A DNA stretch of 64,000 nucleotides. It comes from Nitrospirota bacterium (GTDB taxonomy: Bacteria; Nitrospirota; UBA9217). A program made the position numbers and the translations under genes. The notes beneath the pieces are model-generated. The model was not told the DNA's origin. It searched no databases and saw only the letters and a program-made list of their open reading frames with translations. Below are positions 1,546 to 21,918 of the stretch, piece after piece; the stretch's first letter is position 1, and each line of letters begins with the position of its first letter. The stretch is taken from NCBI GenBank assembly GCA_963840455.1, contig CAWIYV010000009.1, positions 256,001 through 320,000 of the forward strand, given 5' to 3'.

Positions 1546-1911
1546 ACCATGATTCCCCCCAATCTTTGTTTTGCTCCCCATCACAGCATTCAAGCGCATT
1601 CAGGAGATCCGATAGTCGAAAAACTTCCATTCCATTCTGATTTCACTGCTTCCCCGCACCCTCCTTGTGATCTCTTCACAGTAATCCGCTCAACATTTCA
1701 GGATCAACCATTTCAAATCTACCCTGCCTTGCCTGTACCTATCGCCCTATTCCTGTCAAATAAAAATGGGAAATCATGATAATTATATGATTAATATATC
1801 AATATGATATAAAACTGAATTATTTTGGTAATACCATATAAATAGCAATATATGCAAGAAAAACTCTTAATTATCATTATATAACAATGCATTATATAAA
1901 ACAGATTTTTC

Positions 1912-1940
1912 TTGACAATACAATATAAAATTGGTATTTT
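1912..1940 (+). promoter_or_regulatory. sigma70-type promoter of the adhesin/DUF11 operon within an AT-rich tract (~1775-1950)
   Basis: TTGACA(1912-1917), 17-nt spacer ending TGG, then TATTTT(1935-1940). A GC-rich 5'-UTR hairpin follows at 1971-2000. Confidence 0.6.
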
Positions 1941-2042
1941 CTATATTAAGGAATGCTCTGTTTAAACAGGGGGCGCGGGGCTGACAACAGCTCAACGCCC
2001 AGGGAGTCGCATGTCAAACATGGGGTACAGGAAACAACTGCT

Positions 2043-5000
2043 ATGCCGATAAAAAAAGATGACTCACTGCTCCGGACACTCGTAAAGCGCTGCCTCTGGA
2101 TGGTCCTATGGCTTTGCGGCGCCTTCCTGGTGATCTGTCCGGATAGCCTATGGGCCGCTTCCATCACCGGCAATGTCTTCGAAGATATCAACTACGGCGG
2201 TGGAGCAGGACGGAACTGGGCGACCGCTTCCGGCAACGGCGGCCAGACGCGCCCGAACGCCCGGGTTGAGTTGTTCAACGACAACGGGCGCATTTGTGAC
2301 ATCAGTCACCACGAATGCCGCCGGAAATTACTCCTTTCTCGCTCAAATTGCCGCAAATAGGAACTGGATCGTCCGCGTTGTCAGTTCGAGTGTTACTTCG
2401 TCGCGCACCGGGTATGTGGCCGGACTCCTCCCGGTGATGACCTTCCGGACAAACGCCTCTACGGGCACGGCAGTGGACGTGACGGACTACGTCGGGGGCC
2501 TCGATCCGACCACGGCGGACGCGGGGCCTGCGGCGGCGGGATGGATACTGAATGCTGCGACGGGCGTCTTCTCCGGACCCGGCGCCTCAGGCAAGGCGCA
2601 TGCGTTCGCGGCGGTCATAACGGACCCGGGCGCGGCCGCGACCGCCAATGTCAACTTCGGTTGGAACTTCAACACGATCGTGAACACGAACGACACCGGC
2701 CAGGGTTCGCTGCGTCAGTTCATTCTCAACAGCAACGCGCTGGGCAATGCCGGACTGGCCATTCAGGGCCAGCCCGCCGGCCAGGACGTGTCCGTGTTCA
2801 TGATCAGCGACGGTCTGGCTCATCCCGGCCTGCGCGCGGGGCTGGCAAATCTGCTCAGCGCGGGAGTCGCGGTGATCACCCCCGCGACCGCGCTGCCGGC
2901 CGTGACGGATGCGAACACGACCATCGATGGCACGACCCAGACCGTCAACGTCGGCAACACCAACGCGGTGGTGCTGGGAACCGGAGGCACCGTCGGCGTG
3001 GATGGACTTGCGCTCTCCACGGTCCCGGGACCGGAGGTTGAGATCGCCGGCCCGGGGACGCTGGCGAACGGACTGCTGATCCAGGCCAACAATGCCATCG
3101 TGCGCGGCCTCTCGATCTATGGCTTCGGCAGCGTGGTCGGCGACGCCGGTGTCCGGGTCGACGCCTTCACGGGCGCACTGATCGAAGGCAATGTGCTGGG
3201 TTCGCGTGCGACATCGTTCACTGATCCCGGTGTGGTCCAGCGCAATCAGGCAGGCGTCTCCTCCGCGGGCGGCATCAGCGGCATCGTGCGCAACAACCTG
3301 GTCGGATTCGGCCGCGTCGTTGGCGTGAGACTGGATACGGGAAGCACAGGCTGGGTGGTCACCGGCAACGAGATCCGCGACAGCGGCATGGATACTGCCG
3401 ATGGCGACGGCATCACGATAAACGCCGCGCCGACGAACACGGCGACCGGCAATCTGATCACGGGATCCTCGAGCCAGGCCATAGCCGTGACCGTCGCGGG
3501 TGCGACCGGCAATACGTTCACCAATAACACAGTGACGGGCAACGGTGTCGGCATTACGACAGGCCTTGTGCAGAGCTCGGCCGTTGTCCTTCGGTCTGGC
3601 GCAGCGTCGACCACGCTGGACCGGAACGTCATCCGCGCCAATTACGGAGCCGGCGTGCAGGCGAACAACGGCTCCACGGGTACGCGCATGACGCGGAATT
3701 CGTTCGCCCTGAACGGCACCATCGCGGCCCGGAACGGCAGCGGTACGACGGGGCAGATCGCCATCGATCTTAATTCACCAACTGACGACATCAACTTAGG
3801 AACGGTTCCCTTCTACACCCTGAACGATGCCGGCGATGCGGACGCCGGGGGCAACGGTCTGCTCAATTTCCCGGTCATCACTTCGGCCACGACTATCGGA
3901 GGGAATCTGGTTGTAACGGGTTACGCGCGTCCGGGGTCGCTGGTCGAGCTGTACATCGCCAACCCCGACCCATCGGGGTTCGGGGAGGGCGAGACGTATC
4001 TCCTTACATTGACCGAAGGGGGCACTGGCGCGGGTGGCACCGATCCGTACGCCGACACTGACGCCGGAACGGGAGCTTACGGGCCCGGCGCCATCAACGG
4101 CATCGTCCAGGGCGCCGACACCACCAACCGGTTCACATTCACGCTTCCCATCCCAGGTGGGGTCAGCACCGGCACGCGCCTCACGGCGACTGCGACTCTG
4201 GGAGGCGAGACCTCGGAGTTCGGCGGTCTCGTCACCGTTATGGCCTCGGTTTCGGGGACGGTGTTCGAGGACGTGAACTACGGCGGCGGGGCGGGTCGGG
4301 ACAGGACCACCTCTTCCGGCGTGCCCCGTTCCGCAACGCGGGTAGAGCTGTACAACAATGCCGGCGCCTATGTCAACTTCACCACTACCGACGCCTCGGG
4401 CAACTACATCTTCTCCGGCCTTGCGGCGGGTAATTATACAGTCCGTGTGATCAATGCCACGGTCACTTCGTCCCGCACCGGCTACGTGGCCGGGTTGTTG
4501 CCGGTGCAGACCTACCGCACCAATGCATCGAGCGGTTCAGCCGTAGCCGTAACGGACTACGTCGGCGGCCAGAACCCGTCCGTGGCCGACGCCGGCAACG
4601 GCAGCGCCGGTGCGACCATGAACACTGTCACCGGCGTCTTCACCGCGGGAATCAGCGGAACGGCCCAGTCGATCACCAATGCGACGCTCGGAGCCTCCAG
4701 CGTCACAGGAGTAGATTTTGGATTTAATTTCGACGCCATCGTCAACGTCAATGACAGCGGTCAGGGGAGCCTGCGGCAATTCATCACCAACGCCAACACG
4801 CTCGGCGGTGACGCTTCGCTGGTCCAATCAGGACTGGTTGCCGCCAAAGAGAACGCCGTCTTCATGATCTCCAACGGCACCGCGGCAACTGGACTGCGCG
4901 CGGCGAACAACTACTTTGTCGGCGGCGTGGCCACGATCACACCCGCGTCGGCCTTTCCCATCGTTTCCACACCGATGGTCATCGATGCGCAGAAACAGCC

Positions 5001-6156
5001 GGGTTGGAGCAGTACGCCGGTCGTTGAGTTGAACGGGACCGGTGCAGGCGTCGGGAGCAACGGCCTGACCGTGAGCGGCGGCAGCAGCCTCATCAAGGGA
5101 CTTATCATCGACCGTTTCGGCGCCGCCGGTATCTCTCTCTCCGGCGCGGGCGGCACGACGCTCAGCGACAGCATCATCCGCGCCAACAACCGGGGCATCT
5201 ACGACAATGCCGCCAATGATCTCTTTTCCAGGAACGTGATCCAGGGCAACAACGGCGGCAACGGCGAGGGAATCTACCTGGACAGTGGCGCTAGCGGCGC
5301 CAAAGTCTATCACAATACCATCCACGGCAATGCCACCCGGGGGATCAGCCAGGCCGGCGGAAGCGCGACGGTGCGCAACAACCTGATCACCGGCAGCGGC
5401 GGGGTCGGGCTGTTCAGCAGCGGCGGCACCCTGACCGAATCGTACAACGGGATCACCGACGCCATAACCGCCCCGGCTAACACCGGCGGTAGGAGCAATG
5501 TGGCGCTCAGCAGTACCGACCTGAACGTGAACCCTCTCTACATCAACGCCGCTGCGGGTAATTTTACCCTCACCGAATGCGCCAGCCCTGTTATCAACCA
5601 GGGGACCGACCTTGGCGCCGACCAACCGGACATGAACGGCGCAGCTGCAGGTCTCTGGAACAACAACGCCCCGGAGCTGGGAGCCTTTGAGACGACCGGC
5701 AGCTGTACACCAAGCTTGGCCATCGTCAAACAGGCCTGGGACCTGAGCGGAATCGCGCCCCTCGGCTCGCCGGTGACCGCGCCGGCCGGCTCCACCATCA
5801 TCTTCCTGATCTACGTGAAGAACACCACCGCAGGGCCGGTAGCAGACCTGCGGATCAACGACATCCTGGATGAAACCGCTTTCCAGTATGCGTCGGGCAG
5901 TCTGGTTCGGACGCTTGCCGCTTCGCCGCCTGCGGACACGGCCACGGACAAGCAGATTTTCGACGCAACAGCTTCGGGCACAGGCACCGCTCTTTCCGAT
6001 GCCCTGGACGGAGATGTGAGCTCGGCCCTTGACACGGGAGGCCCGGCAGGGGCGGACAGGATAACGATAGGCGCGGTAACAGGCCAGGCCAATGGAATCC
6101 TGACGATCAACGGGCATACCACCTTTGCACTGCAGTTCAAGGTAAAGATCAAGTGA
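2043..6156 (+). CDS. Large secreted adhesin: two [SdrD-B-like + right-handed beta-helix] modules plus a C-terminal truncated DUF11-like domain (putative pilus tip); +1 frameshift at ~2286-2288
   Basis: Signal peptide MPIKK..SLWA is in ORF 1953..2360. Removing one G of GGG(2286-88) joins LFNDN-GAFV, matching the second module LYNNAGAYV. Duplicated motifs G.VFED.NYGGGAGR and VN.ND.GQGSLRQFI.N.N. Gly/Asn-rich PbH1-like repeats. C-terminus LAIVKQ..FLIYVKN..INDILD..FALQFKVKIK. Confidence 0.8.
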
Positions 6157-6197
6157 TGGAATCGGACATTACGGAAAGGCGCATGAAAGGAGCTGAC

Positions 6198-7770
6198 ATG
6201 GTCAAAGAGTATGAAATATTAGTGGTGGATGATGATGAATCCATCTCGCAACTACTGGGCGAGCTGTTGCGCGAGGAAGGTTATCCCGCCACCCGGGCTG
6301 TCGTGCGGCAAAGACATGCGTGATGCCCTTCGTGTCCAGCCCTATCATCTCGTGATGCTCGATCTTATGCTGCCGGACGCGCATGGCATTGAGCTTCTGC
6401 GCGAGATCAAGACCCTGTATCCGAAGACCGACGTGATCATCATGACCAGCAACGCCTCGATAGAAACGGCAGTAAAAGCACTACGGCTGGGGGCCTCCGA
6501 TTACCTTTTCAAACCCTTCGACGACGTGAATGTTGTATCCCACGTAATCGGTAAGGCGTTTGAGAAGCGGCAGATCGCAGATGAAAACGAACGCCTGCAT
6601 CAGAAACTCAAGGCAAAATCCGCAGACCTGGAATCCTCGGTAAGGCGATTGACCTCGCTCAACAATGCCGGCCGGACGCTGCATTCCATGCTGAACATAA
6701 AAGAGCTCTTTGTGGTCACCACCCAGCTCATAGCCTCGGAATTGAAGGCAAAGAGGGTCTCGCTGATGATCCTGAACAAGGCGACGAATGAGCTTGCGAT
6801 CGAGGCCTCAGTGGGGTTGGATGAGCAGATTGCGCAAACTGTCCGCGTTCCCCTCGGGGGAGGCATAGCAGGGTGGGTGGCCAGGGAAGGCAAGGCACTT
6901 CTTGTGGAAGACATTGAGCACGACGACCGATTCAAAAGAAGCCCGGACGGCAAGGGTTATGATACCAACTCCTTCATCTCAGCCCCGCTCCTGCTCAGCG
7001 TCCCGATCCAGTTTCAGAACAAAATCGTAGGCGTTATCAACATCAACAACAAAGTAGGCGGCGGCGTTTTTACCACGGCTGATCTCGAATTCGTAAGTAC
7101 CCTGGCCAGCCAGGCGGCAATTGCCATTGAAAATGGCCGCATATTCGAAAAGCTCAAAGCAATACACATGGAGGTGATCACGGCGCTCGCTGACGCGCTG
7201 GAAGCGAAAGACGTAACCACCGGACACCACAGTCTTCGTCTCATGCACCTGGCCGGACAGGTTGCCGAACGGCTCGATCTCGATGACAAGGCACAGGAGC
7301 GACTTCGCTATGCCGCAGTGCTCCACGATATCGGCAAAATCGGCGTACCGGAACGGATACTCCAAAAGCGCGGAAAGCTGACATCGGAAGAATTTGAAGA
7401 AATCTATAAACACCCGCTCCTGGGGGCGACGATCGTAAAAAAAGTAGCCTTTCTGTCGTCAGTGGCGCCCGTTATTCTGGCGCACCACGAGCGGCTCGAC
7501 GGGAGGGGTTATCCATACGGTATATCGGGAGACGCAATACCCATGGAAGCGCGGATCGTGTCGGTGATGGATTCTTTCGACGCCATGACTTCGGACCGGC
7601 CGTACAGAAAGGCCCTGGGCAAGGCGTACGCGATCAATGAGCTGGTGGCGCGTGCAGGGAGCCAGTTCGATCCACATGTCGTAGAGGCGTTTCTGGCTGT
7701 ACTTCAAGAGAACGAGAAGGATGCTGTCCAATGGGATCACCTGGACGTTTCGATGCCATGGACAGGATAA
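6198..7770 (+). CDS. REC-GAF-HD-GYP cyclic dinucleotide phosphodiesterase (frameshift near 6300)
   Basis: AAAGGAG RBS and ATG 6198 give MVKEYEILVVDDDESI (REC start), which shifts into ORF 6229..7770 (LDLMLP, DYLFKPF). GAF motifs GIAGWVA..G and GVINI.NK; LHDIGKIG and HHERLDGRGYP. Confidence 0.88.
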
Positions 7771-7847
7771 CGATCAAGTCGGTAACGGACGCAGCAAGAG
7801 AACGGTTTGAAACTATAAATTAATCTGGATTCAAAAGGAGGAGCAAA

Positions 7848-8465
7848 ATGAGAACCACAAGTAGAGTTTATGGATTGGCCCTGTGTCTGACGTTCATCAT
7901 ATCCGCCTGGGGTTCGGCCGGCATGGCGGCGACGAACACGGCCACGGACCCGGGCGGCGGCGGCGTGGCCCTGACCGCGTCCGGAGCCGTGACGGTGAAT
8001 TCGACGGCCTTGCAGCTGGTAAAGCAGGTATGGACCACTGCCGGCGCGTGCCTGGCAAGCTCGCCGGCCGACGCCACGTGTAACGGCAGCGCCACCACCA
8101 TTACCGTTCCCGTGAACACCCAGCTCAAGTTCGTCATCTTTGTCAAGAACGCCACGAACCTCGCCCTGAACGATGTCCGTTTCCAGGATACGCTGGATAT
8201 AACTCCCACGGGGTTCACGTACGTAGCAGGTTCGCTCAAGTATGACGGCAATCAATTGGACACGGCAACGCTTGCGCAGATCTACGCCGCTGTTGATGGC
8301 GGTACGGTCGAGACCGACGCGGTTGATGCGGGAGTAGGGCGTTATGCATCAATAACCGGCGGCAGCAATCTGACGGTAGGAGCGGTTGTCGGGCAGGTCA
8401 ACGCGGCATTGACTGTTGCCGCGAACAGGACCTTTGCTCTTGAGTTCCAGGCGAGAAAGAACTAG
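7848..8465 (+). CDS. Secreted DUF11-like subunit (putative major pilin), copy 1
   Basis: Strong RBS AAGGAGGAG; Sec signal ending AGMA; mature ATNTAT..; DUF11-like LQLVKQ..KFVIFVKN..DVRFQDTLD..FTYVAGSL; one Cys pair. Confidence 0.85.
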   Translation: MRTTSRVYGLALCLTFIISAWGSAGMAATNTATDPGGGGVALTASGAVTVNSTALQLVKQVWTTAGACLASSPADATCNGSATTITVPVNTQLKFVIFVKNATNLALNDVRFQDTLDITPTGFTYVAGSLKYDGNQLDTATLAQIYAAVDGGTVETDAVDAGVGRYASITGGSNLTVGAVVGQVNAALTVAANRTFALEFQARKN

Positions 8466-8577
8466 CCCTGGGATCAACGGTCATGCAGCCGGGTGAGGCA
8501 AATAGCCCGTTCCTGGTTTTGCAGCAAGAGGACGGTTTGAAGCTATAAATTAATCCGGATTCAAAAGGAGGAGCAAA

Positions 8578-9195
8578 ATGAGAACCACAAGTAGAGTTTA
8601 TGGATTGGCCCTGTGTCTGACGCTCATCATATCCGCCTGGGGTTCGGCCGGCATGGCGGCGACGAACACGGCCACGGACCCGGGCGGCGGCGGCGTGGCC
8701 CTGACCGCGTCCGGAGCCGTGACGGTGAATTCGACGGCCTTGCAGCTGGTAAAGCAGGTATGGACCACTGCCGGCGCGTGCCTGGCAAGCTCGCCGGCCG
8801 ACGCCACGTGTAACGGCAGCGCCACCACCATTACCGTTCCCGTGAACACCCAGCTCAAGTTCGTCATCTTTGTCAAGAACGCCACGAACCTCGCCCTGAA
8901 CGATGTCCGTTTCCAGGATACGCTGGATATAACCCCCACGGGGTTCACGTACGTAGCAGGTTCGCTCAAGTATGACGGCAATCAATTGGACACGGCAACG
9001 CTCGCGCAGATCTACGCCGCTGTTGATGGCGGTACGGTCGAGACCGACGCGGTTGATGCGGGAGTAGGGCGTTATGCATCAATAACCGGCGGCAGCAATC
9101 TGACGGTAGGAGCGGTTGTCGGGCAGGTCAACGCGGCATTGAGTGTTGCCGCGAACAGGACCTTTGCTCTTGAGTTCCAGGCGAGAAAGAACTAG
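8578..9195 (+). CDS. Secreted DUF11-like subunit (putative major pilin), copy 2
   Basis: 205 aa; differs from copy 1 only by F16L and one T->S near the C-terminus. Confidence 0.85.
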   Translation: MRTTSRVYGLALCLTLIISAWGSAGMAATNTATDPGGGGVALTASGAVTVNSTALQLVKQVWTTAGACLASSPADATCNGSATTITVPVNTQLKFVIFVKNATNLALNDVRFQDTLDITPTGFTYVAGSLKYDGNQLDTATLAQIYAAVDGGTVETDAVDAGVGRYASITGGSNLTVGAVVGQVNAALSVAANRTFALEFQARKN

Positions 9196-9335
9196 CCCTC
9201 GGATCAACGGTCATGTGATGGACGGAAGCAGCGTTCATGAGCATGACGTAGCGTTTTGTATCGGGACTGCAGCATAAGGAAAGATGCGGAACATGTTCGA
9301 ATCTATTTACATAACGAGCGATCGGTGAGGGCAAA

Positions 9336-9959
9336 GTGACAGGAATGCCTGTGACTATAGAAGGTCCTCCTCCCTCCAGGAAGGCCTTTGCCCGCGGTCT
9401 CGCGCTGGGTGCGATGATCGTCGTGCTCCTGCTCGGCTGCCCTCTCGCGGCTTTCTCAGCCACGAACACGGCCATTGATCCGGGCGGCGGTAGCATATCG
9501 CTCGTTCCCTCCGGACCGGTGACGGTAAACAGCGTTCAGCTGGCCTTGGTCAAGCAGGCCCGCGATCTTTCCGGCGCCGTTCTGTCAACGGGCGCCAACG
9601 TAACGCCCGGTCAGACGATCTATTTTGTTCTGTATGTCGACAACACCACCGCTTATCCCGCCAACGATATACAAATTATCGATCCATTGGACGAATCCGC
9701 CTTTACCTATCTGATAAACAGCATGGAAACCGCCGTTGTCCCCGCGGGATCCAATGACGCTGCAATATGGGCAGGCGCGTGGTCTTCCCTGTCAGATCTT
9801 CGGGGCGCACCGGATGATCTTGCCTCGATAACGGATAGCGGCGGCCCGGCGGGGCTGGACCGGTTGACGGTCGGTGCAGTTGCAATTCAGGCGAACCAGA
9901 CGTTGAATATTTCCGGCAATACCCTGCGCGCAATACGGTTCAGGGTTACGGTGAACTGA
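9336..9959 (+). CDS. Secreted DUF11-like subunit (putative minor pilin/adaptor)
   Basis: Signal peptide then ATNTAIDPGGG..VTVNSVQLALVKQ..YFVLYVDN..IIDPLD..FTYL; clear paralogue of 7848/8578. Start codon uncertain. Confidence 0.8.
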   Translation: MTGMPVTIEGPPPSRKAFARGLALGAMIVVLLLGCPLAAFSATNTAIDPGGGSISLVPSGPVTVNSVQLALVKQARDLSGAVLSTGANVTPGQTIYFVLYVDNTTAYPANDIQIIDPLDESAFTYLINSMETAVVPAGSNDAAIWAGAWSSLSDLRGAPDDLASITDSGGPAGLDRLTVGAVAIQANQTLNISGNTLRAIRFRVTVN

Positions 9960-9961
9960 TA

Positions 9962-12900
9962 ATGGTCCTTGCGTTCATCCATAGGGCGTTTTCGAGGCGG
10001 AAGCAGCCTTCCTGGCAGGAAGGCTTATGGCGCCGTTCTGCCCTGAGGATGCTTGTGGCAGTGCTCTGGATCCTGACGCTGAGCGGTATGCTGTTTGTGA
10101 CGTCCGCTCACGCGATCCAGAACAGTGCAACCGGCACCATCGGGGGGAGTCCCTTGGTTGTCACGAATGCGACCGTTACCTTGACTCGCGCCGGAAGCGC
10201 CGTTGCGTCCGCTGTCTCCGAGGTCAATCCCCATGCAGTAACTATGGGCTCGGCGGGCAACATCTTCACCTACGATGTGCTTCCGACCATTAATGCAGGC
10301 AACACGGGTGTGGACCGGGTGGCCGTTACCGCGCCGGCAGGGTACAGTGCCTTGGGCGTGACCGCCGTATCGGTTGGAGGCTTCGCCCAGACCCTGAACT
10401 GCCCTGTGCCCGGAGCGGGCCAGTACTGCGCTGTTGTGGCAGGCCAGGTGATGACCATCACGCTGGGGACCAAGGTCGCGGTCACCGGCACGAATATCCA
10501 TATCACGTTCAGCGCAGCAGCGCCGGGAGCCACGGGGAGCGCCGTCTTCAGTTCCACGATCGACGACACCAGTACCGCCGCTGTTCCTGCCCAGGCAACG
10601 ATCGCAGGCAACGCGAACGGAAACAACGTCGATGGAAACAACCAGGACGTCTCCGTAACGGGCAGTGCCGTGCCCAGCGATGTCAACTCGACTGTCATCG
10701 TTTCACCGCAAGTGGTGGTTGCCAACGGTGTCGACTTCAGCACCATCACGATCATATTGCGGGATGCAGCAAATCAACCCGTCCCCGGGAAGGTCGTTAG
10801 TCTTTCATCCGACCGAGGAGCCGATGTCATTACCCTGACGACTTTCACAACCGATGCCGGCGGTGTGGCAATAGCAACGATCAGATCAACGGTTGTCGGG
10901 GTTTCTACTCTGACGGCGACGGATGGAACGGACGGTATTGTCCTCTCAGCGCGGCCGCAGGTCTTCTTCACTCAGGGACAGGCGATTGAATTGCGCAAGA
11001 GTGCGAGTAAAAATAAGGCCGTAGTCGGCGATGTGGTCAACTACCTGATCGAGATCAAGAACAGGACCGCGAGCATCATCACCCCGGTGCGGGTGGATGA
11101 CCAGATCCCGCCGAACTTCAAGTACGTGAAAGGCAGCGCCAGGCTGAATGGATCGGTCGTGAAAGACCCCACGGGCAACCGCCCCCTGACCTTTGATATC
11201 GGCGCCGTACCGGCGTTTGTGGACAGCAACGGCAATGGCCGGGCCGACCCCGGCGAACCGGGCTATATGACGCTGAGCTATCAAATGGTCATCGGTTCAG
11301 GGGCTACGCCCCGGGAATATGTGAACACTGCCACGGCCAAGGACGTATGCGACCAGTGTTTCATCTCCAACCCCAGTGAGGCAACGGTGACCGTGACCAT
11401 AGATCCTCTGTTAGATCTGGGGACTATCATCGGTAAAGTATTCGAGGACAACAACCGAAACGGCTTGCAGGACAAGGATGAGCCAGGCGTGGCGGGAGCC
11501 ATGGTCGTCCTGGACAACGGGACCTATGTGCTCACCGACGAATACGGACGGTATCATATCCCGGCCGTGACTCCGGGCCACCGGCTTATTAAACTCAATC
11601 TCTCCAGCATATCGAGCGAAGCCGTCGCGACAACGGATGAGACTGTGGTCCTTACGGTCACGCCCGGCATCCTCGCCAAGGCGAATTTCGGCGTGATAGC
11701 ACCCGGAGGCACGGAACGTATCGGCCGGGACAAACAGCTGGGCATTTCCCTGAAGAGCGAGGACCGGAAAAAACCGCTCCAGCTCATCGGGAGCGCTGAG
11801 ACGCTGACTATTCTGATGAACGGCGAGACTACTACACTGCCGACCGCAGACGTCCAAATGGCCGTCGAGGGCCTGAATGAAGTGGTGGAAATCAACAGCG
11901 GCAAGCTGGACGCGCCGGTCAGGTTCACCGTAGCACTCGCAGAACGGCGACAGGTTGAGTCATGGCATCTTACCGTATTCGACGCTCAGGGGAGCGTAGT
12001 CCGCACGCTGCGGGGCAAGGGAGCCCCGCCCGAGACGCTGCTGTGGGACGGCCGGACAGAAGAAAAGGATCTGGTCAAAGGCGGTAGCATCTATCAGTAT
12101 CAATTCGTTGCCCAGTACGCTGACGGGAGCAGGGCAACCGGCCCGCGCGTCCTGTTCGGAGTAAACCAGACCACGGCGATCGCGGTCCGTCTGAGCGGCA
12201 GCGCATTCAAAACCGGATCGGACGAGCTCAGCGAGGAGGCAAAGACAACGCTTGCGAAGGCCGCGGAGATCCTGAGAAAGTATCCGCAGGAGAAGATCGT
12301 CATCGAAGGCCACACCGACACAACCGGGACAGACAAGCAGAACCTTGAACTTTCGAAGAAGAGGGCGGAAGCGGCGATGGCCTACCTCGTCAACGTGGAA
12401 CGGCTGCCCCGAGACCGGTTCACCGTGCGGTGGTATGGTTCGGCCAGACCGATGGCGGACAACAGGAATGACGAGGGAAGGACGCTCAATCGCCGCGTCG
12501 AGATCAAGGGAGAGGTCCATGAGATCGACCGTGCAAAATTGCTCGATGAATACCGGACAGAGCCCGTTGTCACGATCAGCGGATCTCCCCTGCAGCTCGA
12601 CCCGCTGGGGAGATTTTCCGCCCAGATTGAACCGGATTCCCGGGGTCAGGTTGAGATCGAGATGGCAAACTCGCGGGGCGGATCGGTCAAAACGAAGATG
12701 ACCATCCCGCGGCTCGAGATCCTCCGGCCGAAGGGTGAAGCTCTTCTGCCATACGGAGAGATGAACGAACAGTACCGGGTCAGCGTGCCCTCCCAGGGCC
12801 AGCAGGCAACATCGGGAGAAACGGCAGTGGAATATCAATTCCTGGGGATGACCGATCCAGGAAACGCCGTTGAGCTGGACGGTAAAACGATCGCCATTGA

Positions 12901-15900
12901 ACCAGACGGCACCTTCCGGAGCCCGCTCATGCTGAAGTCGGGCAACAACACGTACGGGATTCTGGTACGGAACCCGTCGGGATACACCCGCGCAGCCAAT
13001 CTCATGATCACGGCGACGGACCGTGACGACAAGGGGGGGGTTGTGGTAGCAGTGAAGCCAATCCCGAACCTTGTTGTCAAATTCCCGCGGCCGGGCGCGC
13101 CCTTGAAAGACAACCTGCTCACTATTTCCGGTCTGACCGACAGGGGGAATACGATCCAGGTCAACGGACAGGCGGTTACGGTCCAGCCTGACGGGCAGTT
13201 CGCCCATACCGTAAAGCTCGAAAAAGGGGCGAACCATATTGTAGTACAGGTTGCGGACCCGGAAGGTTATGAAGGATCGATCGAGCGGGAGTTCACCACG
13301 GCGGATGCGCCGCTGTTCTTCCTTGCCTTTGCCGACGGGGTAGTCGGACAGATGAGCGGCAAAGGGTACCTGGAAGGTGCCGGCATGAGCAAATCTACAG
13401 AGTATTATCAGCAGGGACGCGTGGCGTACTATTTTAAAGGCATGGTCGCTGGAAAGTATCTGATCACCTCGGCGTTTGACACCGGGACCAATGACTACAA
13501 CAAAATGTTCAAGAATCTTGACAACGCGGAGCACGATCGGCTGCTCACGAACCTCGATCCGGACAAGCTCTATCCTGTGTACGGAGATTCCAGCACGATC
13601 GTCTACGACGCGCAGAGCCAGGGGAAATTCTATCTCGCCGTGGATAGCGACGAGTTCCACCTTCTGGTCGGAAATTATCCTTTATCCCTTTCCGATACGG
13701 AACTGGCGAGGTACCAGGCGACGCTGTACGGGGCGCGGGCCGCTTACCAGTCGGTATCACGGAGCAAGTACGGAAGGGCGGATACCGAGATCATCCTGTT
13801 CGGCGCGGAAGCTTCACAGGCCCATGTCCAGGATGAGTTGCTGGCGACCGGCGGCTCACTGTATTACCTCAGCCACCGGGACGTCATCGAAGGGAGCGAA
13901 CAGGTCACCCTGGTGGTACGGGACAAGAATACGGGATTGCTGGTGGCCCGCATCCCGCAGCAGCAGAACGTGGATTATACCGTGAAGTATCCGGAAGGCC
14001 GCATTCTTTTCAATCGGCCGATCTCAAGCGTCGCCCAGGACGCGTCCCTGATCAACCAAGCGATGTTGCCCGGGAATCCCGTCTCGATCCAGGTGGACTA
14101 CGAAGTGGTCACGACTTTATTAGAGAAGACCGCGGCCGGAGGGCGCGTTCGACAGCAGGTCGGCGACCATGTATCGATCGGCAGCACCTACGTCAAGGAC
14201 GAATTGGGAACGGGGCAGTATGAACTGAAGGCCGTGGACACCGAGGTCCGGCTGGGCAAGAACACGAGGATCCTGGGCGAGTACGCGGAAAGTACGGGTA
14301 CGAATGCCGTAACCAACGTGAGCACGGACGGCGGCCTCACGTACACGGAGGTCACGCCCGCCGGTTTCCAGGAAGGCAAGGCATGGAAGGCCGCCGCAGA
14401 ATTGGATATCGGTGAGCTGTTCGGCTCGCCAGACCGGTACCAGGCGGGCGGCTACATCAAGAAGCTCGACAGCGGCTTCCTCTCGAACGGCAATTTTGCC
14501 GAAAAAGGCACCGAGAAGAGCGGTGTGAACACGAAGCTTCAGATCACGCCGGAAGACAAGCTCCTGGCCCGGTATGACCGTGAGCAGGTCGACACGGCTA
14601 CCGCAGGCGCCGCACAGCAGTCGGACACGGGAGCGGTCCAGTATGCTCACAAGAAAGACTGGTGGGAAGTCGCCGCTGAATATCAGACGTTCAAGTCCTT
14701 GGACCCGGCAGGGACGGTGCTGAACGACACGAGTCTCGGGGCCGTCAGACTCACCGTAACGCCCCGTGAGAACCTGTCGCTGTACGCGCAGCGCCAGGAG
14801 ACGATGAGCGGGGCGGAGAACGACCAGACGACGCTCGGAATCAGATACCGCATCCTCCCGTCCTTGTCCCTGGAGGCAAGCGGCATGAAGGGCACACTCG
14901 GCGATTCGGCGCAGGTCGGGCTCAACCTGACAGACGGGAAAACGAACGTATACGTGACTGAGCGGCTGAACGATGACCGCGCGGGCCAGACCACATCGAC
15001 CATTTTCGGCTCACAGTATCAGTTCGCACCTTCCAGCAAGGTCTATTCTGAATACCAGTGGGAGCGTTCGGACGGGGAGCAGGGCAACCGGACCATTTCC
15101 CTCGTCGGCGCACAGCGACAATGGGACCTCACGAAAGGAGTGACGTTCCTTCTCGCGGGCGAAGAAGCCAACCTGCACGCAGCGTCGGGAGATACCAGCC
15201 GGTCATCGCTTGCCGCCGGTCTTTCGGTCCTTCATCCATCCGGGGTGAAGTTCTCCACGCGCGATGAGATACGTCATGAGACCGGTGCCCTGAAGCGGGT
15301 GCAATACCTCACCGTGAACCAGGTCGACGTGAAAGTGAACCCCGATTATACACTCATCGGCAAGTACCGCTACAGCCTCACCCGCGATCTCATCCACGAT
15401 ACGATTGAGGCGAAGTTCGATGAACGGAGCATCGGACTTGCGTACCGGCCGGTGGAGAACGACCGATTTAACGCCCTTGCACGGTATACCCGGCTGCTGG
15501 ATCAACGTCCTGTCAGCCCGGGCCAGACCGACAATATCACCGGGCTTTCCAATGTGACCTCGCTCGAATGGTCGTTCCAGCTCAACCGTTCCGTGGAATG
15601 GGTGGAGAAATTGGCATACAATATCAAGGCCGAGGGATCAGGCTCGATGCCAGCGGTGACGACCCATACTTCCCTGATCATCACCCGTTTTAACCTTGCT
15701 CTCGGGAAGATGATCGATCTGGGGACGGAATATCGCGTCCTGGCCCAGCGCGAAGCGAACGACCAGCGCGCGGGTTGGCTCACGGAGCTCATGTGGAAAC
15801 CGTCGAAATTTATCCGCCTCGGCGTGGGGTATAATTTTACCGATTTTTCCGATAATGAGTTCTCGAATAACAATTATTCGGTCCGCGGCTGGTTCATCAG

Positions 15901-15919
15901 GCTGCAAGGAAAGTACTAA
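9962..15919 (+). CDS. 1985-aa outer-membrane protein: Ig/Big_1-like, complete DUF11, SdrD-B-like, OmpA peptidoglycan-binding and Ig domains, large C-terminal beta-barrel
   Basis: Signal ..TSAHA; DUF11 IELRKS..GDVVNYLIEIKN..DDQIPPNFKYVKGS..YVNTATA; IIGKVFEDNNRNG..EPGVAGA; OmpA IEGHTDTTG..NLELSKKRAEA..NRRVEI; amphipathic beta-strands ending FIRLQGKY (aromatic C-terminus). Confidence 0.88.
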   Translation: MVLAFIHRAFSRRKQPSWQEGLWRRSALRMLVAVLWILTLSGMLFVTSAHAIQNSATGTIGGSPLVVTNATVTLTRAGSAVASAVSEVNPHAVTMGSAGNIFTYDVLPTINAGNTGVDRVAVTAPAGYSALGVTAVSVGGFAQTLNCPVPGAGQYCAVVAGQVMTITLGTKVAVTGTNIHITFSAAAPGATGSAVFSSTIDDTSTAAVPAQATIAGNANGNNVDGNNQDVSVTGSAVPSDVNSTVIVSPQVVVANGVDFSTITIILRDAANQPVPGKVVSLSSDRGADVITLTTFTTDAGGVAIATIRSTVVGVSTLTATDGTDGIVLSARPQVFFTQGQAIELRKSASKNKAVVGDVVNYLIEIKNRTASIITPVRVDDQIPPNFKYVKGSARLNGSVVKDPTGNRPLTFDIGAVPAFVDSNGNGRADPGEPGYMTLSYQMVIGSGATPREYVNTATAKDVCDQCFISNPSEATVTVTIDPLLDLGTIIGKVFEDNNRNGLQDKDEPGVAGAMVVLDNGTYVLTDEYGRYHIPAVTPGHRLIKLNLSSISSEAVATTDETVVLTVTPGILAKANFGVIAPGGTERIGRDKQLGISLKSEDRKKPLQLIGSAETLTILMNGETTTLPTADVQMAVEGLNEVVEINSGKLDAPVRFTVALAERRQVESWHLTVFDAQGSVVRTLRGKGAPPETLLWDGRTEEKDLVKGGSIYQYQFVAQYADGSRATGPRVLFGVNQTTAIAVRLSGSAFKTGSDELSEEAKTTLAKAAEILRKYPQEKIVIEGHTDTTGTDKQNLELSKKRAEAAMAYLVNVERLPRDRFTVRWYGSARPMADNRNDEGRTLNRRVEIKGEVHEIDRAKLLDEYRTEPVVTISGSPLQLDPLGRFSAQIEPDSRGQVEIEMANSRGGSVKTKMTIPRLEILRPKGEALLPYGEMNEQYRVSVPSQGQQATSGETAVEYQFLGMTDPGNAVELDGKTIAIEPDGTFRSPLMLKSGNNTYGILVRNPSGYTRAANLMITATDRDDKGGVVVAVKPIPNLVVKFPRPGAPLKDNLLTISGLTDRGNTIQVNGQAVTVQPDGQFAHTVKLEKGANHIVVQVADPEGYEGSIEREFTTADAPLFFLAFADGVVGQMSGKGYLEGAGMSKSTEYYQQGRVAYYFKGMVAGKYLITSAFDTGTNDYNKMFKNLDNAEHDRLLTNLDPDKLYPVYGDSSTIVYDAQSQGKFYLAVDSDEFHLLVGNYPLSLSDTELARYQATLYGARAAYQSVSRSKYGRADTEIILFGAEASQAHVQDELLATGGSLYYLSHRDVIEGSEQVTLVVRDKNTGLLVARIPQQQNVDYTVKYPEGRILFNRPISSVAQDASLINQAMLPGNPVSIQVDYEVVTTLLEKTAAGGRVRQQVGDHVSIGSTYVKDELGTGQYELKAVDTEVRLGKNTRILGEYAESTGTNAVTNVSTDGGLTYTEVTPAGFQEGKAWKAAAELDIGELFGSPDRYQAGGYIKKLDSGFLSNGNFAEKGTEKSGVNTKLQITPEDKLLARYDREQVDTATAGAAQQSDTGAVQYAHKKDWWEVAAEYQTFKSLDPAGTVLNDTSLGAVRLTVTPRENLSLYAQRQETMSGAENDQTTLGIRYRILPSLSLEASGMKGTLGDSAQVGLNLTDGKTNVYVTERLNDDRAGQTTSTIFGSQYQFAPSSKVYSEYQWERSDGEQGNRTISLVGAQRQWDLTKGVTFLLAGEEANLHAASGDTSRSSLAAGLSVLHPSGVKFSTRDEIRHETGALKRVQYLTVNQVDVKVNPDYTLIGKYRYSLTRDLIHDTIEAKFDERSIGLAYRPVENDRFNALARYTRLLDQRPVSPGQTDNITGLSNVTSLEWSFQLNRSVEWVEKLAYNIKAEGSGSMPAVTTHTSLIITRFNLALGKMIDLGTEYRVLAQREANDQRAGWLTELMWKPSKFIRLGVGYNFTDFSDNEFSNNNYSVRGWFIRLQGKY

Positions 15920-16051
15920 ACGACGGGGATGCCTTTGTCCGGATGACAAGGCAGGGCGCTTTCATTGCGCTCTCCTTTACAGTATACTATCGAAAAAGTG
16001 CATCTCGGTCACGCGCGAACCTTTTCGTAGTGTCCGGGACCACGGAGAGGT

Positions 16052-17359: not shown

Positions 17360-17378
17360 CCGAGAACAGGAGTCGGAC

Positions 17379-19220: not shown

Positions 19221-19263
19221 CCCTCTGTCGTGAGCAGGCAGCGATTATGGGAGGAATCTGATT

Positions 19264-21206: not shown

Positions 21207-21247
21207 AATTCTTTTAAAAAACTCATGAAAAAACGGGCAAAGAATGA

Positions 21248-21845: not shown

Positions 21846-21918
21846 GTAAGTCTTCGTGTTCGCTCGACTCTTTTATCAGTTCAGTATAGTGATCGAAGAA
21901 GCAAACAAGGAGGTAAGC

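What the first reader, a model, noticed from the sequence alone, without database searches (positions are those of the whole stretch)
2043..15919. Candidate new Gram-negative pilus polymerised by donor-hairpin complementation with intermolecular isopeptide bonds (split DUF11 domains)
Seen: the intact DUF11 domain in the 1985-aa protein (~10985-11398) has the triad K (IELRK), D (RVDDQIP) and N (YVNTATA..EATVTV, the last hairpin). The three small subunits keep the Lys strand and Asp (LQLVK59Q, RFQD114TLD; LALVKQ, IIDPLD). They stop right before the Asn hairpin (..FALEFQARKN*, ..IRFRVTVN*) and instead carry that hairpin at the mature N-terminus (ATN30TATDPGGGGVALTASGAVTVN). The adhesin ends with the same truncated domain (LAIVKQ..INDILD..FALQFKVKIK*) and has no donor. 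The outer-membrane protein begins its mature chain with a donor-like hairpin (IQNSATGTIGGSPLVVTNATVTL). Known: DUF11/TIGR01451 and TIGR04226-type CnaB-like folds form autocatalytic Lys-Asn bonds via an acidic residue, and split versions underlie Tag/Catcher chemistry. Some archaeal filaments combine donor strands with isopeptide links. Inference: a natural Tag/Catcher chain, tip adhesin <- pilin(n) <- minor pilin <- OM anchor. No chaperone, sortase or type IV motor is visible in the operon. I do not know this architecture as a described diderm pilus class.
Basis: partly seen in the sequence, partly recalled or inferred. Interest (0 to 1): 0.93.

Follow-up and report, generated by a model that had tools for sequence, protein, structure and literature searches.

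The report
Split-domain surface fibre of diderm bacteria
A conserved gene cluster seems to build an outer-membrane-anchored surface fibre whose subunits each plug an N-terminal two-strand hairpin into the Ig-like domain of the next subunit, possibly locked by a self-made covalent bond, which would be a new way for Gram-negative bacteria to build a pilus.

Summary
The features belong to a conserved family: 325 cluster representatives, and syntenic clusters in Gammaproteobacteria, Geobacter and Nitrospirota MAGs.

The parts follow a strict grammar:
- Tip proteins end in a hairpin-less DUF11/CLIPPER-like domain.
- Pilins are signal peptide, then an Asn hairpin, then the same domain.
- A ~2000-aa OmpA/barrel outer-membrane protein starts with a hairpin.

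Natural one-chain fusions join domain and next hairpin in that order. K59, D114 and N30 are almost invariant.

Head-to-tail assembly by hairpin insertion is the best reading. The Lys-Asn lock is plausible but unproven.

A rival surfaced here. A second conserved Asn (N185), 20 residues from the C-terminus, could make the domain complete in cis. Strand polarity and composition favour N30. Profile alignments cannot decide.

The structure and complex predictors were closed, so the decisive test was not run. Six literature searches found no description of such a system.

The parts
1912..1940 (+). promoter-like site (TTGACA-17-TATTTT, TG before the second hexamer) in the AT-rich stretch upstream of the tip gene
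   Evidence: a consensus match only; GC 0.47 at 1001-2000
2043..6156 (+). tip protein (adhesin-like) gene, interrupted by a +1 frameshift near 2286-2289. The signal-peptide frame runs 2043..2288. The main ORF 2173..6156 (1327 aa) has two beta-helix/NosD regions and SdrD_B.
   Evidence: relatives' contigs show net -1 indels at 2280-2305
5704..6153 (+). C-terminal hairpin-less DUF11/CLIPPER-like 'acceptor' domain of the tip protein (aa ~1178-1327; K1186, D1230)
   Evidence: 36% identical to pilin aa 54-203, E 1e-17; matches pilin profile positions 54-204; residue numbers
6229..7770 (+). response regulator REC-GAF-HD-GYP (c-di-GMP phosphodiesterase type), lying between tip and pilin genes
   Evidence: Pfam; HD and GYP motifs visible in the translation; same position in 10 related loci
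7848..8465 (+). major pilin copy 1 (205 aa): signal peptide 1-27, hairpin 28-53 (N30 at 7935), domain 54-205 (K59 at 8022, D114 at 8187, N185)
   Evidence: (TIGR01451, 25.3 bits against cutoff 24)
8578..9195 (+). major pilin copy 2, a tandem duplicate with 730-nt period and 2 aa differences
   Evidence: one relative's contig joins 7790 to 8522, i.e. has a single copy
9196..9335 (+). structured spacer between major and minor pilin genes
   Evidence: MFE -45.7 kcal/mol, z -3.0, 1 of 200 shuffles as stable; no Rfam match; sequence conserved in L023 and L025
9336..9959 (+). minor pilin (207 aa): hairpin with N44, domain with K73 and D116
   Evidence: orthologues sit directly upstream of the outer-membrane gene in 25 of 26 loci
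9962..15919 (+). 1985-aa outer-membrane protein: signal peptide, donor-like hairpin, Ig-like stalk, OmpA-like domain, C-terminal probable barrel
10115..10189 (+). donor-like hairpin at the mature N-terminus of the outer-membrane protein (aa 52-76, N54)
   Evidence: conserved in 11 of 13 locus orthologues, the other 2 carrying a pilin-type hairpin; 69 of 120 database homologues carry a hairpin
10985..11398 (+). intact DUF11/CLIPPER domain (K346, D380, N455, CxxC)
   Evidence: Pfam; K, D and N conserved in 11 of 11 orthologues, CxxC in 8 of 11; weak hit to 9IFR with Asn aligned
12206..12493 (+). OmpA-like peptidoglycan-binding domain (aa 749-844)
   Evidence: Pfam E 1.9e-23; NCBIfam
13289..15916 (+). 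C-terminal ~876 aa with no known family, a probable outer-membrane beta-barrel ending ..GWFIRLQGKY
   Evidence: 496 homologues; last residue aromatic in 119 of 121; Atlas neighbours of homologue P0308 named outer membrane protein, a lead only; no PDB relative
16052..17359 (+). inner-membrane-anchored periplasmic FecR-like protein. Its C-terminal Ig domain is homologous to aa ~1055-1102 of the outer-membrane protein.
   Evidence: 42% identity over 48 aa; syntenic
17304..19220 (+). Cache-HAMP histidine kinase (probable start ATG at 17379)
   Evidence: syntenic
19264..20241 (+). REC-GGDEF diguanylate cyclase (GGEEF, RxxD I-site)
20166..21206 (+). second REC-GGDEF diguanylate cyclase (probable start near 20238)

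Best explanation
The cluster 2043..21206 encodes a modular surface fibre anchored in the outer membrane.

Shown:
- The gene set and its order are conserved.
- All Sec-exported parts carry either an N-terminal two-strand Asn hairpin, a C-terminal DUF11/CLIPPER-like domain, or both.

Inferred:
- The hairpin of one part inserts into the domain of the part distal to it. It supplies the Asn strand and the last strand that a normal CLIPPER domain has in cis.
- This gives the chain tip protein <- major pilin(n) <- minor pilin <- outer-membrane protein.
- Each junction would recreate the Lys/Asp/Asn triad of CLIPPER domains (K59 and D114 of the acceptor, N30 of the incoming hairpin). It could therefore lock itself by an autocatalytic Lys-Asn isopeptide bond.
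- The 1985-aa protein anchors the base. Its OmpA-like domain would bind peptidoglycan. Its C-terminal ~880 aa are probably a barrel.

Speculation:
- The barrel may also be the export pore.
- The adjacent FecR-like protein, histidine kinase, two REC-GGDEF cyclases and the REC-GAF-HD-GYP protein couple the fibre to c-di-GMP signalling.

In this genome the tip gene carries a frameshift.
For: Family and invariance:
- 166 relatives and 325 cluster representatives.
- K59 288 of 290, D114 295 of 296, N30 277 of 281.
- One minor pilin has lost K and D together (K->T, D->N).

Grammar:
- 48 of 58 relatives longer than 300 aa end within 3 residues of the profile end, and 41 of 50 have no donor aligned.
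- 0 of 25 tip proteins in loci contain a hairpin.
- 69 of 120 homologues of the outer-membrane protein start with a hairpin.

Synteny:
- Seen in Gammaproteobacteria, Geobacter and Nitrospirota loci.
- One genome holds 5 tip-type ORFs on 5 contigs plus 2 pilins.

Natural fusions without a second signal peptide:
- P0140: pilin + minor pilin.
- P0218: minor pilin + outer-membrane protein.
- P0156: tip + minor + outer-membrane protein.
- Acceptor-to-Asn linkers are 3-9 residues.

Phase-shifted repeat:
- From the end of the hairpin's last strand to the Lys is 9 residues, both in the pilin and between domains of tandem DUF11 proteins. The hairpin therefore has the geometry of a preceding domain's hairpin.

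N30 rather than N185:
- Hydrophobic residues on the Asn face against the other face: canonical isopeptide strands 73-75% against 36-39%; N30 64% against 16%; outer-membrane donor 64% against 9%; N185 21% against 60%.
- Aromatic content: canonical strand before the Asn strand 21%, canonical last strand 0 of 196; pilin last cis strand 18%, second hairpin strand 1%.
- Four cluster representatives have N185->S with N30, K59 and D114 intact.

Other support:
- Covariation inside the hairpin: pairs 34-44, 31-47, 29-49 and 36-42 all have i+j=78.
- Homology of the core to DUF11: TIGR01451 25.3 bits against cutoff 24; hhalign probability 84%, E 7e-6; Atlas neighbours.
- A CLIPPER isopeptide (K715-N806, D748) is solved in 9IFR (PMC12617251, passages).
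Against: - No structure or complex could be predicted, so no geometry supports the junction.
- An HMM of canonical last hairpins does not find the pilin hairpins above controls: 2 of 297 at 5 bits or more, medians -1.2 against -1.3 and -0.8.
- Joining 16 minor-pilin domains to their cognate outer-membrane hairpins does not raise the profile score against the intact CLIPPER: 29.7 against 29.9 alone, 30.1 reversed, 29.7 shuffled.
- N185 is N in 279 of 289 and lies 71 residues after D114 and 20 before the end. The intact CLIPPER has 75 and 21. The domain could therefore be complete in cis.
- From K59 to the end is 146 aa, longer than a canonical 106-aa repeat.
- An Atlas DUF11 neighbour aligns 106 residues within the domain part alone.
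- Donor-acceptor covariation is weak: best pair ranks 33 of 14,878 at Neff 146.
- The link 'pilin-type hairpin on the outer-membrane protein = no minor pilin' (5 loci against 26) can be a by-product of a deletion. It is not independent proof.
- Two minor pilins have N->T in the hairpin.
- No export route for the subunits is identified.
- Expression is unknown.
- The tip gene is frameshifted here.
Confidence: 0.55

Rival explanations
1. The C-terminal domain is a complete CLIPPER domain in cis, with an ordinary intramolecular K59-N185 isopeptide catalysed by D114. The N-terminal hairpin is an extra element. It could be an edge-strand extension of its own domain, or a beta-augmentation handle that docks non-covalently on a neighbour. 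The small proteins would then be single-domain DUF11 proteins or non-covalent linkers.
For: - N185 is conserved in 279 of 289 short and 49 of 50 long relatives.
- Spacing D114->N185 is 71 and N185->end is 20, against 75 and 21 in the intact CLIPPER of the same operon.
- The domain is 146 aa from Lys to end, longer than a canonical repeat.
- hhalign of the domain alone spans CLIPPER columns 6-147, and the donor adds nothing.
- An Atlas structural neighbour aligns 106 residues within the domain part.
- The turn N51-S52-T53 would allow a tight hairpin onto strand 1.
Against: - The N185 strand has the opposite face polarity to canonical isopeptide Asn strands (21% against 60%; canonical 73-75% against 36-39%), whereas N30 has the canonical polarity.
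- The last cis strand is aromatic-rich like the canonical strand before the Asn strand, not like a canonical last strand (18% against 0 of 196).
- Four cluster representatives have N185->S yet keep K59, D114 and N30.
- In relatives under 38% identity, N30 is kept in 53 of 54 and N185 in 51 of 57.
- This reading leaves several facts unexplained: the invariance of N30 at position +3 of the mature chain in pilins and outer-membrane proteins, the strict C-terminal position of the domain, and the hairpin-less tips.
Confidence: 0.2
2. The hairpin does complete the neighbour's domain in trans, but the junction is only non-covalent, as in chaperone-usher pili. The conserved K, D and N would serve packing or folding.
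For: - The grammar and fusions support trans-complementation without bearing on chemistry.
- Some junctions must be non-covalent: L006 minor pilin lacks K and D, and L010 and L014 minor pilins have N->T.
- BsaA N35A oligomers stay SDS-stable without the bond (10.1101/2024.11.04.621531, passage).
Against: - The three residues are the exact triad of CLIPPER domains, in which the bond is solved (9IFR).
- They are the most conserved positions of the family.
- K and D are lost together in the one case seen.
Confidence: 0.1
3. It is not a long pilus but a defined short adhesin assembled from separate parts (tip, one or a few linkers, anchor). The major pilin would be a spacer used once or a few times.
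For: - A same-family genome has tip + minor pilin + outer-membrane protein and no major pilin.
- P0156 has tip, minor pilin and anchor in one chain.
- Monolithic homologues with adhesin heads exist.
Against: - The major pilin's hairpin and domain are of the same type, so self-addition is expected.
- Where the outer-membrane protein carries a pilin-type hairpin, the major pilin's domain must accept that type.
- The major pilin gene is duplicated here and in several loci, and a structured spacer follows it. Both are typical of a high-copy subunit.
Confidence: 0.1
4. The shared C-terminal domain is a sorting or secretion tag recognised by the giant outer-membrane protein, with logic like the C-terminal domains of type IX secretion cargo. 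The hairpin would have another role.
For: - The domain lies at the extreme C-terminus in 48 of 58 long relatives.
- Several unlinked cargo-like proteins per genome carry it.
- The outer-membrane partner has no known family.
Against: - The 200-aa proteins would be cargo-less tags, present in two identical copies.
- The outer-membrane protein itself carries the hairpin.
- Fusions place the domain internally, followed by a hairpin.
- No NCBIfam or Pfam sorting-domain match reaches its cutoff.
Confidence: 0.05

Closest known systems
Chaperone-usher pili (type 1, P pili)
   Same: The tip adhesin has an acceptor-only pilin domain, and subunits have an N-terminal donor plus an incomplete Ig-like fold. 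The order is polar, tip to base, with an outer-membrane assembly or anchor protein. Diderm hosts.
   Different: No PapD-like chaperone or usher family is present. The donor is a two-strand hairpin, not one strand. The fold is DUF11/CLIPPER. A putative covalent lock is present. The anchor itself supplies the last donor and carries an OmpA-like domain.
BsaA of Clostridium perfringens (TasA family), 'donor strand exchange and lock' (10.1101/2024.11.04.621531; passages read)
   Same: An N-terminal segment inserts into the neighbour's sheet, and an Asn on it bonds a Lys of the acceptor with an acidic catalyst (N35, K74, E56). There, mutants abolish oligomers.
   Different: Unrelated fold and family. 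Monoderm host. Secretion is linked to type IV pilus genes and SipW. The catalyst is Glu, not Asp. No outer-membrane anchor.
Archaeal thread filament, Saci_0406 (PMC9715654; passages read)
   Same: Donor strand complementation plus an intermolecular isopeptide, with no chaperone.
   Different: The bond runs from the N-terminal alpha-amine (Asp24) to Asn57 of subunit n+2. Archaeal host, heavily glycosylated, no sequence relation.
CLIPPER (DUF11) domains of fibrillar adhesins, e.g. Acinetobacter silvestris B9T28_05395, PDB 9IFR (PMC12617251; passages read)
   Same: Homologous core: TIGR01451 above cutoff, hhalign E 7e-6. Same Lys/Asp/Asn triad. That adhesin also ends in an OmpA-like anchoring domain. 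The window's outer-membrane protein holds an intact copy.
   Different: There the triad is within one domain of one chain, an intramolecular bond. Here the Asn strand that best resembles the canonical one sits at the N-terminus of a different polypeptide.
Sortase-assembled pili of monoderm bacteria
   Same: Covalent Lys-linked polymer of Ig-like (Cna-type) subunits with a tip adhesin and a basal subunit.
   Different: Those bonds are enzyme-made (sortase, LPXTG). Neither is present here, and these are diderm hosts.
Engineered split isopeptide domains (SpyTag/SpyCatcher, isopeptag, SnoopTag).
   Same: A strand bearing the reactive residue is separated from the rest of the domain and reacts in trans.
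   Different: Those are man-made from CnaB-type domains and are not filaments.
Type V secretion (autotransporters, intimin/invasin)
   Same: One protein combines an Ig-like (Big_1/Invasin_D3) passenger, a peptidoglycan-binding domain and a membrane barrel.
   Different: No autotransporter or inverse-autotransporter barrel family matched. The barrel region is about 880 aa. Domain order differs. Separate subunits are added.

Membership tests
DUF11 / CLIPPER (PF01345, TIGR01451) | Sequence match to the family models above their cutoffs | tested here: inconclusive
   Major pilin: TIGR01451 25.3 bits (cutoff 24). Minor pilin: 16.5 bits. PF01345: 10.9 and 13.8 bits against cutoff 24.6 for the window's pilins, and 24.7 for relative P0140. 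hhalign of a 298-row pilin alignment against 68 canonical domains: probability 84%, E 7e-6 over pilin aa 85-118.
DUF11 / CLIPPER (PF01345, TIGR01451) | Lys on the first strand and catalytic Asp at the homologous positions | tested here: met
   K59 and D114 align to the Lys and Asp of canonical domains. K is kept in 288 of 290 and D in 295 of 296.
DUF11 / CLIPPER (PF01345, TIGR01451) | Isopeptide Asn on the penultimate strand of the same domain (a complete fold in one chain) | tested here: inconclusive
   N185 has the right spacing but the wrong strand polarity. N30, on another part of the chain, has the right polarity. Alignments of the C-terminal half are unreliable. No structure was available.
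Chaperone-usher pili | PapD-like periplasmic chaperone and PapC/FimD-type usher | tested here: not met
   No such Pfam or NCBIfam family in any of the 11 cluster proteins scanned.
Chaperone-usher pili | N-terminal donor on subunits and a donor-less tip adhesin | tested here: met
   Met as an analogy only. Hairpins sit at mature N-termini. 0 of 25 tip proteins carry one.
Sortase-assembled pili | Sortase gene and LPXTG sorting signal | tested here: not met
   No sortase family. The proteins end ..ARKN..TVN and ..KIK.
TasA/BsaA donor-strand filaments | Homology to the TasA/camelysin family and a SipW-type signal peptidase in the operon | tested here: not met
   No such Pfam hit at E up to 10 for the pilins. 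No signal peptidase gene in the cluster.
TasA/BsaA donor-strand filaments | Asn on an N-terminal donor, with Lys and an acidic residue on the acceptor | tested here: inconclusive
   The residues are present and conserved. Their contact was not tested, because the predictors were closed.
Type V pili (Bacteroidota FimA/Mfa) | Lipoprotein precursors, protease-released N-terminal strand, C-terminal donor strands | tested here: not met
   There is no lipobox Cys at the signal-peptide end (..SAGMA|ATN). The donor is N-terminal.
Autotransporter / inverse autotransporter | Barrel of the Autotransporter or IAT_beta family | tested here: not met
   Only Big_1, Invasin_D3, DUF11, SdrD_B, OmpA and Glucodextran_B matched. 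The C-terminal 876 aa have no Pfam or PDB relative.
Outer-membrane beta-barrel protein (general) | C-terminal beta-signal ending in an aromatic residue | tested here: met
   Ends ..GWFIRLQGKY. The last residue is Y, F or W in 119 of 121 family members. The barrel itself is not shown.

The most novel reading that the evidence does not exclude
This would be a previously undescribed class of diderm surface filament, made by splitting CLIPPER (DUF11) domains between polypeptides.

- Each subunit donates the Asn-bearing last hairpin to the preceding subunit's domain.
- The junction seals itself with an autocatalytic Lys-Asn isopeptide bond, with no chaperone, usher, sortase or ATPase.
- The fibre would be capped by interchangeable tip proteins that carry only the acceptor.
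- It would be rooted by a ~2000-aa OmpA/barrel protein that supplies the final hairpin and may be the export pore.
- Its state would be read by a FecR-like/histidine kinase/GGDEF/HD-GYP module.
- It would offer at least two natural, mutually selective hairpin/domain pairs: pilin-type and outer-membrane-type.
Probability: 0.4. Interest if true: 0.9.

Novelty: new variant of a known kind. Interest (0 to 1): 0.78.

Why it matters
- **A new assembly route.** If the reading holds, Gram-negative bacteria have a route to covalently linked surface fibres that needs none of the known machines. Pilus classifications, such as the 2026 review PMC13721041 (passages read), list only chaperone-usher, type IV, sortase and curli routes.
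- **An evolutionary picture.** It would show how a tandem-repeat adhesin can become a polymer simply by moving gene boundaries by two strands. Monolithic, partly fused and fully split forms still coexist.
- **A signalling hypothesis.** It gives a testable candidate for surface or tension sensing feeding c-di-GMP.
- **Protein tools.** It may provide natural split-isopeptide pairs for protein ligation.
- **Annotation.** The family is annotated only as hypothetical or TIGR01451 repeat protein. It occurs in environmentally important groups: Nitrospirota, Geobacter and Ca. Tenderia MAGs.

Tried and rejected
The pilin trimer test was not run.
There is no monomer model, no fold of the natural fusions and no fold search.
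- The protein-atlas search did not hold the window's protein. I used stored homologues as the message suggested. Those results are leads only.

**Sequence tests of 'hairpin = displaced last hairpin of DUF11'**
- hhalign of the hairpin alone found nothing.
- An HMM of 31 canonical last hairpins gave no signal above reversed or internal controls.
- The global hhalign of four natural fused units aligned K and D, but the C-terminal half was unreliable.
- Joining domain and cognate hairpin gave no score gain.
- Larger profiles align only the core.

**Other analyses that led nowhere**
- Covariation (mean-field DCA, 284 rows, Neff 146) supports the hairpin register only. Donor-acceptor pairs and ladders were weak and partly contradictory.
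- PDB sequence searches with the pilin profile and with the barrel region found nothing useful.
- Head diversity of tip proteins: single-linkage clustering lumped 35 of 41 heads, so I make no claim of diverse heads. Lengths range from 313 to 2765 aa. 8 of 10 sampled had no Pfam family at 1e-4.
- Pilin-profile hits inside the 120 outer-membrane homologues were short cores only, in 7 of 120.
- Antisense ORFs over the cluster have no Pfam family.
- Rfam found no match in 1500-10100.
- Terminator scan: 12 found against 13.4 expected.
- RNA evidence: no RNA holder listed. The best DNA holders share at most 0.32 of the words and are relatives.
- RNAalifold on six spacers gave no consensus structure.

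**Readings considered and rejected**
- An N-glycosylation sequon at N30: there is no S/T at +2.
- A lipoprotein: there is no Cys.

**Files not seen**
- Supplementary files were not opened. Table S2 of PMC12617251, which lists DUF11 domains with and without bonds, may bear on the N185 question.

Full report
**What is there**

On the + strand the window holds one gene array.
- A tip protein gene. Its signal-peptide frame runs from 2043 and its main ORF is 2173..6156 (1327 aa). It has two beta-helix/NosD regions and SdrD_B.
- REC-GAF-HD-GYP (6229..7770).
- Two nearly identical 205-aa genes (7848..8465 and 8578..9195), a tandem duplicate with 730-nt period and 2 aa differences.
- A 207-aa gene (9336..9959).
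- A 1985-aa gene (9962..15919) that starts 2 nt after the previous stop.
- An inner-membrane-anchored FecR-like protein (16052..17359).
- A Cache-HAMP histidine kinase (17304..19220).
- Two REC-GGDEF proteins with GGEEF and RxxD motifs (19264..20241 and 20166..21206).

Low-GC stretches flank the array. A promoter-like site lies at 1912-1940. Antisense ORFs have no family.

**Check of the observation**

- Major pilin: N30, K59, D114.
- Minor pilin: N44, K73, D116.
- Tip protein: K1186, D1230.
- Outer-membrane protein: hairpin Asn N54, and an intact DUF11 domain with K346, D380 and N455 (Pfam E 1.5e-6).

That intact domain's K, D and N are kept in 11 of 11 orthologues, and its CxxC in 8 of 11. 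Its Asn aligns with N806 of PDB 9IFR in a weak hit (E 0.024).

Four corrections apply.
- The tip gene is split by a +1 frameshift near 2286-2289. Contigs of relatives in three runs carry indels there of net -1. These are X1 with -1 at 2283, and X5 and X6 with +2, +1 and -1. The break is therefore particular to this assembly or strain.
- DUF11, renamed CLIPPER, is a CnaA-like fold whose bond joins the first and the penultimate strand (PMC12617251, passages). It is not CnaB-like.
- A second conserved Asn exists (N185). See the section on the open question.

**The family**

A word-indexed search found 166 relatives, of which 120 were listed. Nearly all are unnamed, 'hypothetical' or 'TIGR01451 family'.

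I aligned 35 of the 120, picked across the identity range, with the window's major and minor pilin (A1). Invariant residues include N30, K59, Q60, N101 and D114.

A full HMM search with A1 found 325 cluster representatives at E up to 1e-3, and 166 at up to 1e-10.

Of the 266 proteins in hand, 208 are 300 aa or shorter and 58 are longer. In 48 of the 58 the match ends within 3 residues of the protein's C-terminus. It usually starts at profile position 43-55, that is at the Lys strand.

Conservation counts:
- K59 is K in 288 of 290 aligned pilin-length members.
- D114 is D in 295 of 296.
- N30 is N in 277 of 281.
- In 50 long members, K is 45 of 45 aligned and D is 50 of 50. 41 of the 50 have nothing aligned at the hairpin.

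Neither hairpin HMM hits any of 25 long acceptor-ending ORFs in the loci, against 222 of 298 pilins as positive control.

The window's genome has only the four copies of this cluster. In a sample of its phylum, 4 of 401 genomes (own included) have a match, and 0 of 5 genomes of the same genus do. The distribution is patchy.

**Synteny and grammar**

Sixteen loci came from species genomes and 65 from metagenomes. They were compared by BLASTP and HMMs in scripts.

The recurring order is:
- tip protein(s) ending in the hairpin-less domain;
- major pilin, one or two copies;
- minor pilin, sometimes with a third pilin type;
- the giant outer-membrane protein;
- the FecR-like protein, histidine kinase and REC-GGDEF.

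REC-GAF-HD-GYP lies between tip and pilin in the window's closest relatives.

The mature N-terminus of the outer-membrane protein is a conserved hairpin, x-[QST]-N-[ST]-A-T-G ... L.L.NA.V.LN. It is present in 11 of 13 locus orthologues. The other two (L005, L008) carry a pilin-type hairpin, ATNEATDPGGG...

Among 120 database homologues of the C-terminal region, 58 have the outer-membrane type, 11 the pilin type and 51 neither. Most of the 51 are N-terminally truncated. The clear exceptions start with adhesin heads, so they are monolithic forms.

In the loci, two pairs with identical architecture were counted once each.
- 26 outer-membrane genes have the outer-membrane-type hairpin. 25 of them have a minor pilin labelled upstream. 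The 26th (L007) has a third-type pilin.
- 5 have the pilin-type hairpin (L005, L008, L026, L029, L047). Each has a major pilin directly upstream and no minor pilin. The 'MIN[109]' label in L026 is the tail of a tip protein.

On a FastTree of 70 C-terminal regions the pilin-type label needs 7 changes, at least 6 of them forced by starred branches. The five loci map to three separate places on the tree.

I note that a deletion between the two hairpin-coding segments would produce this association by itself. It shows that 'minor-pilin domain plus outer-membrane hairpin' is a removable unit. It does not show that hairpin and domain fit each other.

**Natural fusions**

Three database proteins fuse neighbouring parts without an intervening signal peptide.
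- P0140: hairpin-domain-hairpin-domain.
- P0218: minor pilin followed directly by the outer-membrane hairpin and stalk.
- P0156: beta-helix head, domain, minor-type hairpin, domain, outer-membrane hairpin, then Big_1.

In all three, hairpins and domains alternate. Each domain is followed by a hairpin after 3-9 residues.

A genome of the window's family has tip, minor pilin and outer-membrane protein but no major pilin. The minimal chain is therefore tip-minor-anchor, and the major pilin is an extender.

One genome has 2 pilins and 5 unlinked long ORFs ending in the domain. This fits interchangeable tips.

**Is the domain truncated? The open question**

Evidence against that model:
- N185 (GQVN185AALTV) is N in 279 of 289.
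- It lies 71 residues after D114 and 20 before the end. The intact CLIPPER of the same operon has 75 and 21.
- The domain is long: 146 aa from Lys to the end, against a 106-aa canonical repeat.
- hhalign lets the domain alone span the whole CLIPPER. Adding the cognate hairpin changes nothing: 29.7 against 29.9, with controls 30.1 and 29.7.
- An Atlas DUF11 neighbour aligns 106 residues inside the domain part of homologue P0088.
- A canonical-hairpin HMM does not recognise the pilin hairpin.

Evidence for that model:
- **Face polarity.** In canonical isopeptide Asn strands (20 tandem repeats, 11 outer-membrane CLIPPERs) the Asn face is hydrophobic at 73-75% of positions and the other face at 36-39%. 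The N30 strand shows 64% against 16%. The outer-membrane hairpin shows 64% against 9%. The N185 strand shows the opposite, 21% against 60%.
- **Aromatic content.** The canonical strand before the Asn strand is 21% aromatic, and the canonical last strand 0 of 196. The pilin's last cis strand is 18% and the second hairpin strand 1%.
- **N185 is dispensable in some members.** Four cluster representatives have N185->S with N30, K59 and D114 intact.
- **Conservation in distant relatives.** Among relatives under 38% identity, N30 is kept in 53 of 54 and N185 in 51 of 57.
- **Repeat geometry.** From the end of the hairpin to the Lys is 9 residues, exactly as between consecutive domains of tandem DUF11 proteins. 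If the hairpin occupies the canonical position, that is far too short to reach back into its own domain.
- **Hairpin register.** Covariation supports a hairpin register in which i+j=78 in 4 of the top 8 hairpin-internal pairs. It says little on hairpin-domain contacts.

I weigh this as roughly 3 to 1 for the split-domain reading over the complete-in-cis reading.

**The outer-membrane protein and the signalling genes**

After the hairpin come these domains:
- a conserved domain of unknown family;
- Big_1/Invasin_D3;
- the intact CLIPPER;
- SdrD_B;
- an OmpA-like domain (E 1.9e-23);
- a Glucodextran_B-like Ig domain;
- 876 aa with no Pfam or PDB relative.

The C-terminal region has 496 homologues. 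The last residue is aromatic in 119 of 121. Atlas neighbours of a homologue are named 'outer membrane protein' (a lead only). A barrel is likely but not shown.

Whether the stalk lies outside the cell, and how the subunits cross the outer membrane, is unknown. Homologues with long adhesin passengers suggest the module can display an N-terminal passenger.

The FecR-like protein shares an Ig domain with the outer-membrane protein (42% identity over 48 aa). It always travels with the kinase and cyclases. A signalling link to c-di-GMP is my inference.

**Comparison with what is known**

[quoted passage not shown] None of their defining components is present; see the membership test.

The core is homologous to CLIPPER domains. 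For these an intramolecular Lys-Asn bond has been solved.

Six full-text searches found no description of a split DUF11 fibre in diderm bacteria. Neither did the passages read in PMC12617251 or in the 2026 review PMC13721041 (only the first 300,000 characters are held). Supplements were not seen.

**What could not be done**

The complex predictor and the structure predictor were closed throughout. No RNA holder was listed.

**Verdict**

- Head-to-tail assembly through the N-terminal hairpin is the best-supported mechanism (about 0.55).
- The isopeptide lock between K59 and N30' is plausible, but it competes with an ordinary in-cis K59-N185 bond.
- Either way, the system is undescribed in the literature searched and deserves experimental work.

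Noticed in passing
window 2280-2305: The tip protein gene is broken by a +1 frameshift. The signal-peptide frame from 2043 stops at 2360, and the main frame is open from 2134. Relatives' contigs carry compensating indels of net -1.
   Followed up: partly
window 7791-9199: A tandem duplication of the major pilin gene with its upstream 57 nt (period 730 nt, 7 mismatches in about 680 nt). One relative's contig has a single copy.
   Followed up: partly
window 9196-9335: The spacer between the major and minor pilin genes folds unusually well (-45.7 kcal/mol, z -3.0). Its sequence is conserved in the two closest loci. It has no Rfam family. It may set the subunit ratio.
   Followed up: partly
window 8400 (codon of N185 in pilin 1) and the same column in relatives: The motif TVGAVxGQxN185 is nearly invariant (G178, Q183, N185) and N101 is invariant (296 of 296). 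Their roles are unexplained if K59 bonds N30.
   Followed up: partly
window 13124-13282 and 17144-17344: An Ig-like (Glucodextran_B) domain of the outer-membrane protein is homologous to the C-terminal domain of the FecR-like protein (42% over 48 aa here, 36-42% in three other loci). This is a possible contact for signalling.
   Followed up: no
L086 (G069:C47:40000-59999): A genome of the same family has the cluster without any major pilin: tip protein (divergently transcribed), minor pilin, outer-membrane protein, FecR-like protein, kinase and GGDEF.
   Followed up: partly
genome G404 (holds L016): This genome has two pilins and five long ORFs (310-2722 aa) on five contigs, all ending in the hairpin-less domain. 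They may be alternative tips.
   Followed up: no
L007, L010, L042, L043, L046, L050: A third pilin type, with hairpin A(T/V)N(I)G.AN.GADP..PD.D.ITDS and tail F.FRAR(I/V)N, sits between the major and minor pilins in some loci. One of them has K->E.
   Followed up: no
window 35-1485: The upstream XPD/DinG-like helicase appears split over two frames (DEAD_2 in 35..1117, HBB in 1114..1485). It ends before the AT-rich stretch.
   Followed up: no
window 1001-2000 and 21001-22000: Low-GC stretches (0.47 and 0.45, against about 0.6 inside) flank the cluster. The family is found in only 4 of 401 sampled genomes of the phylum. This is consistent with horizontal acquisition.
   Followed up: no
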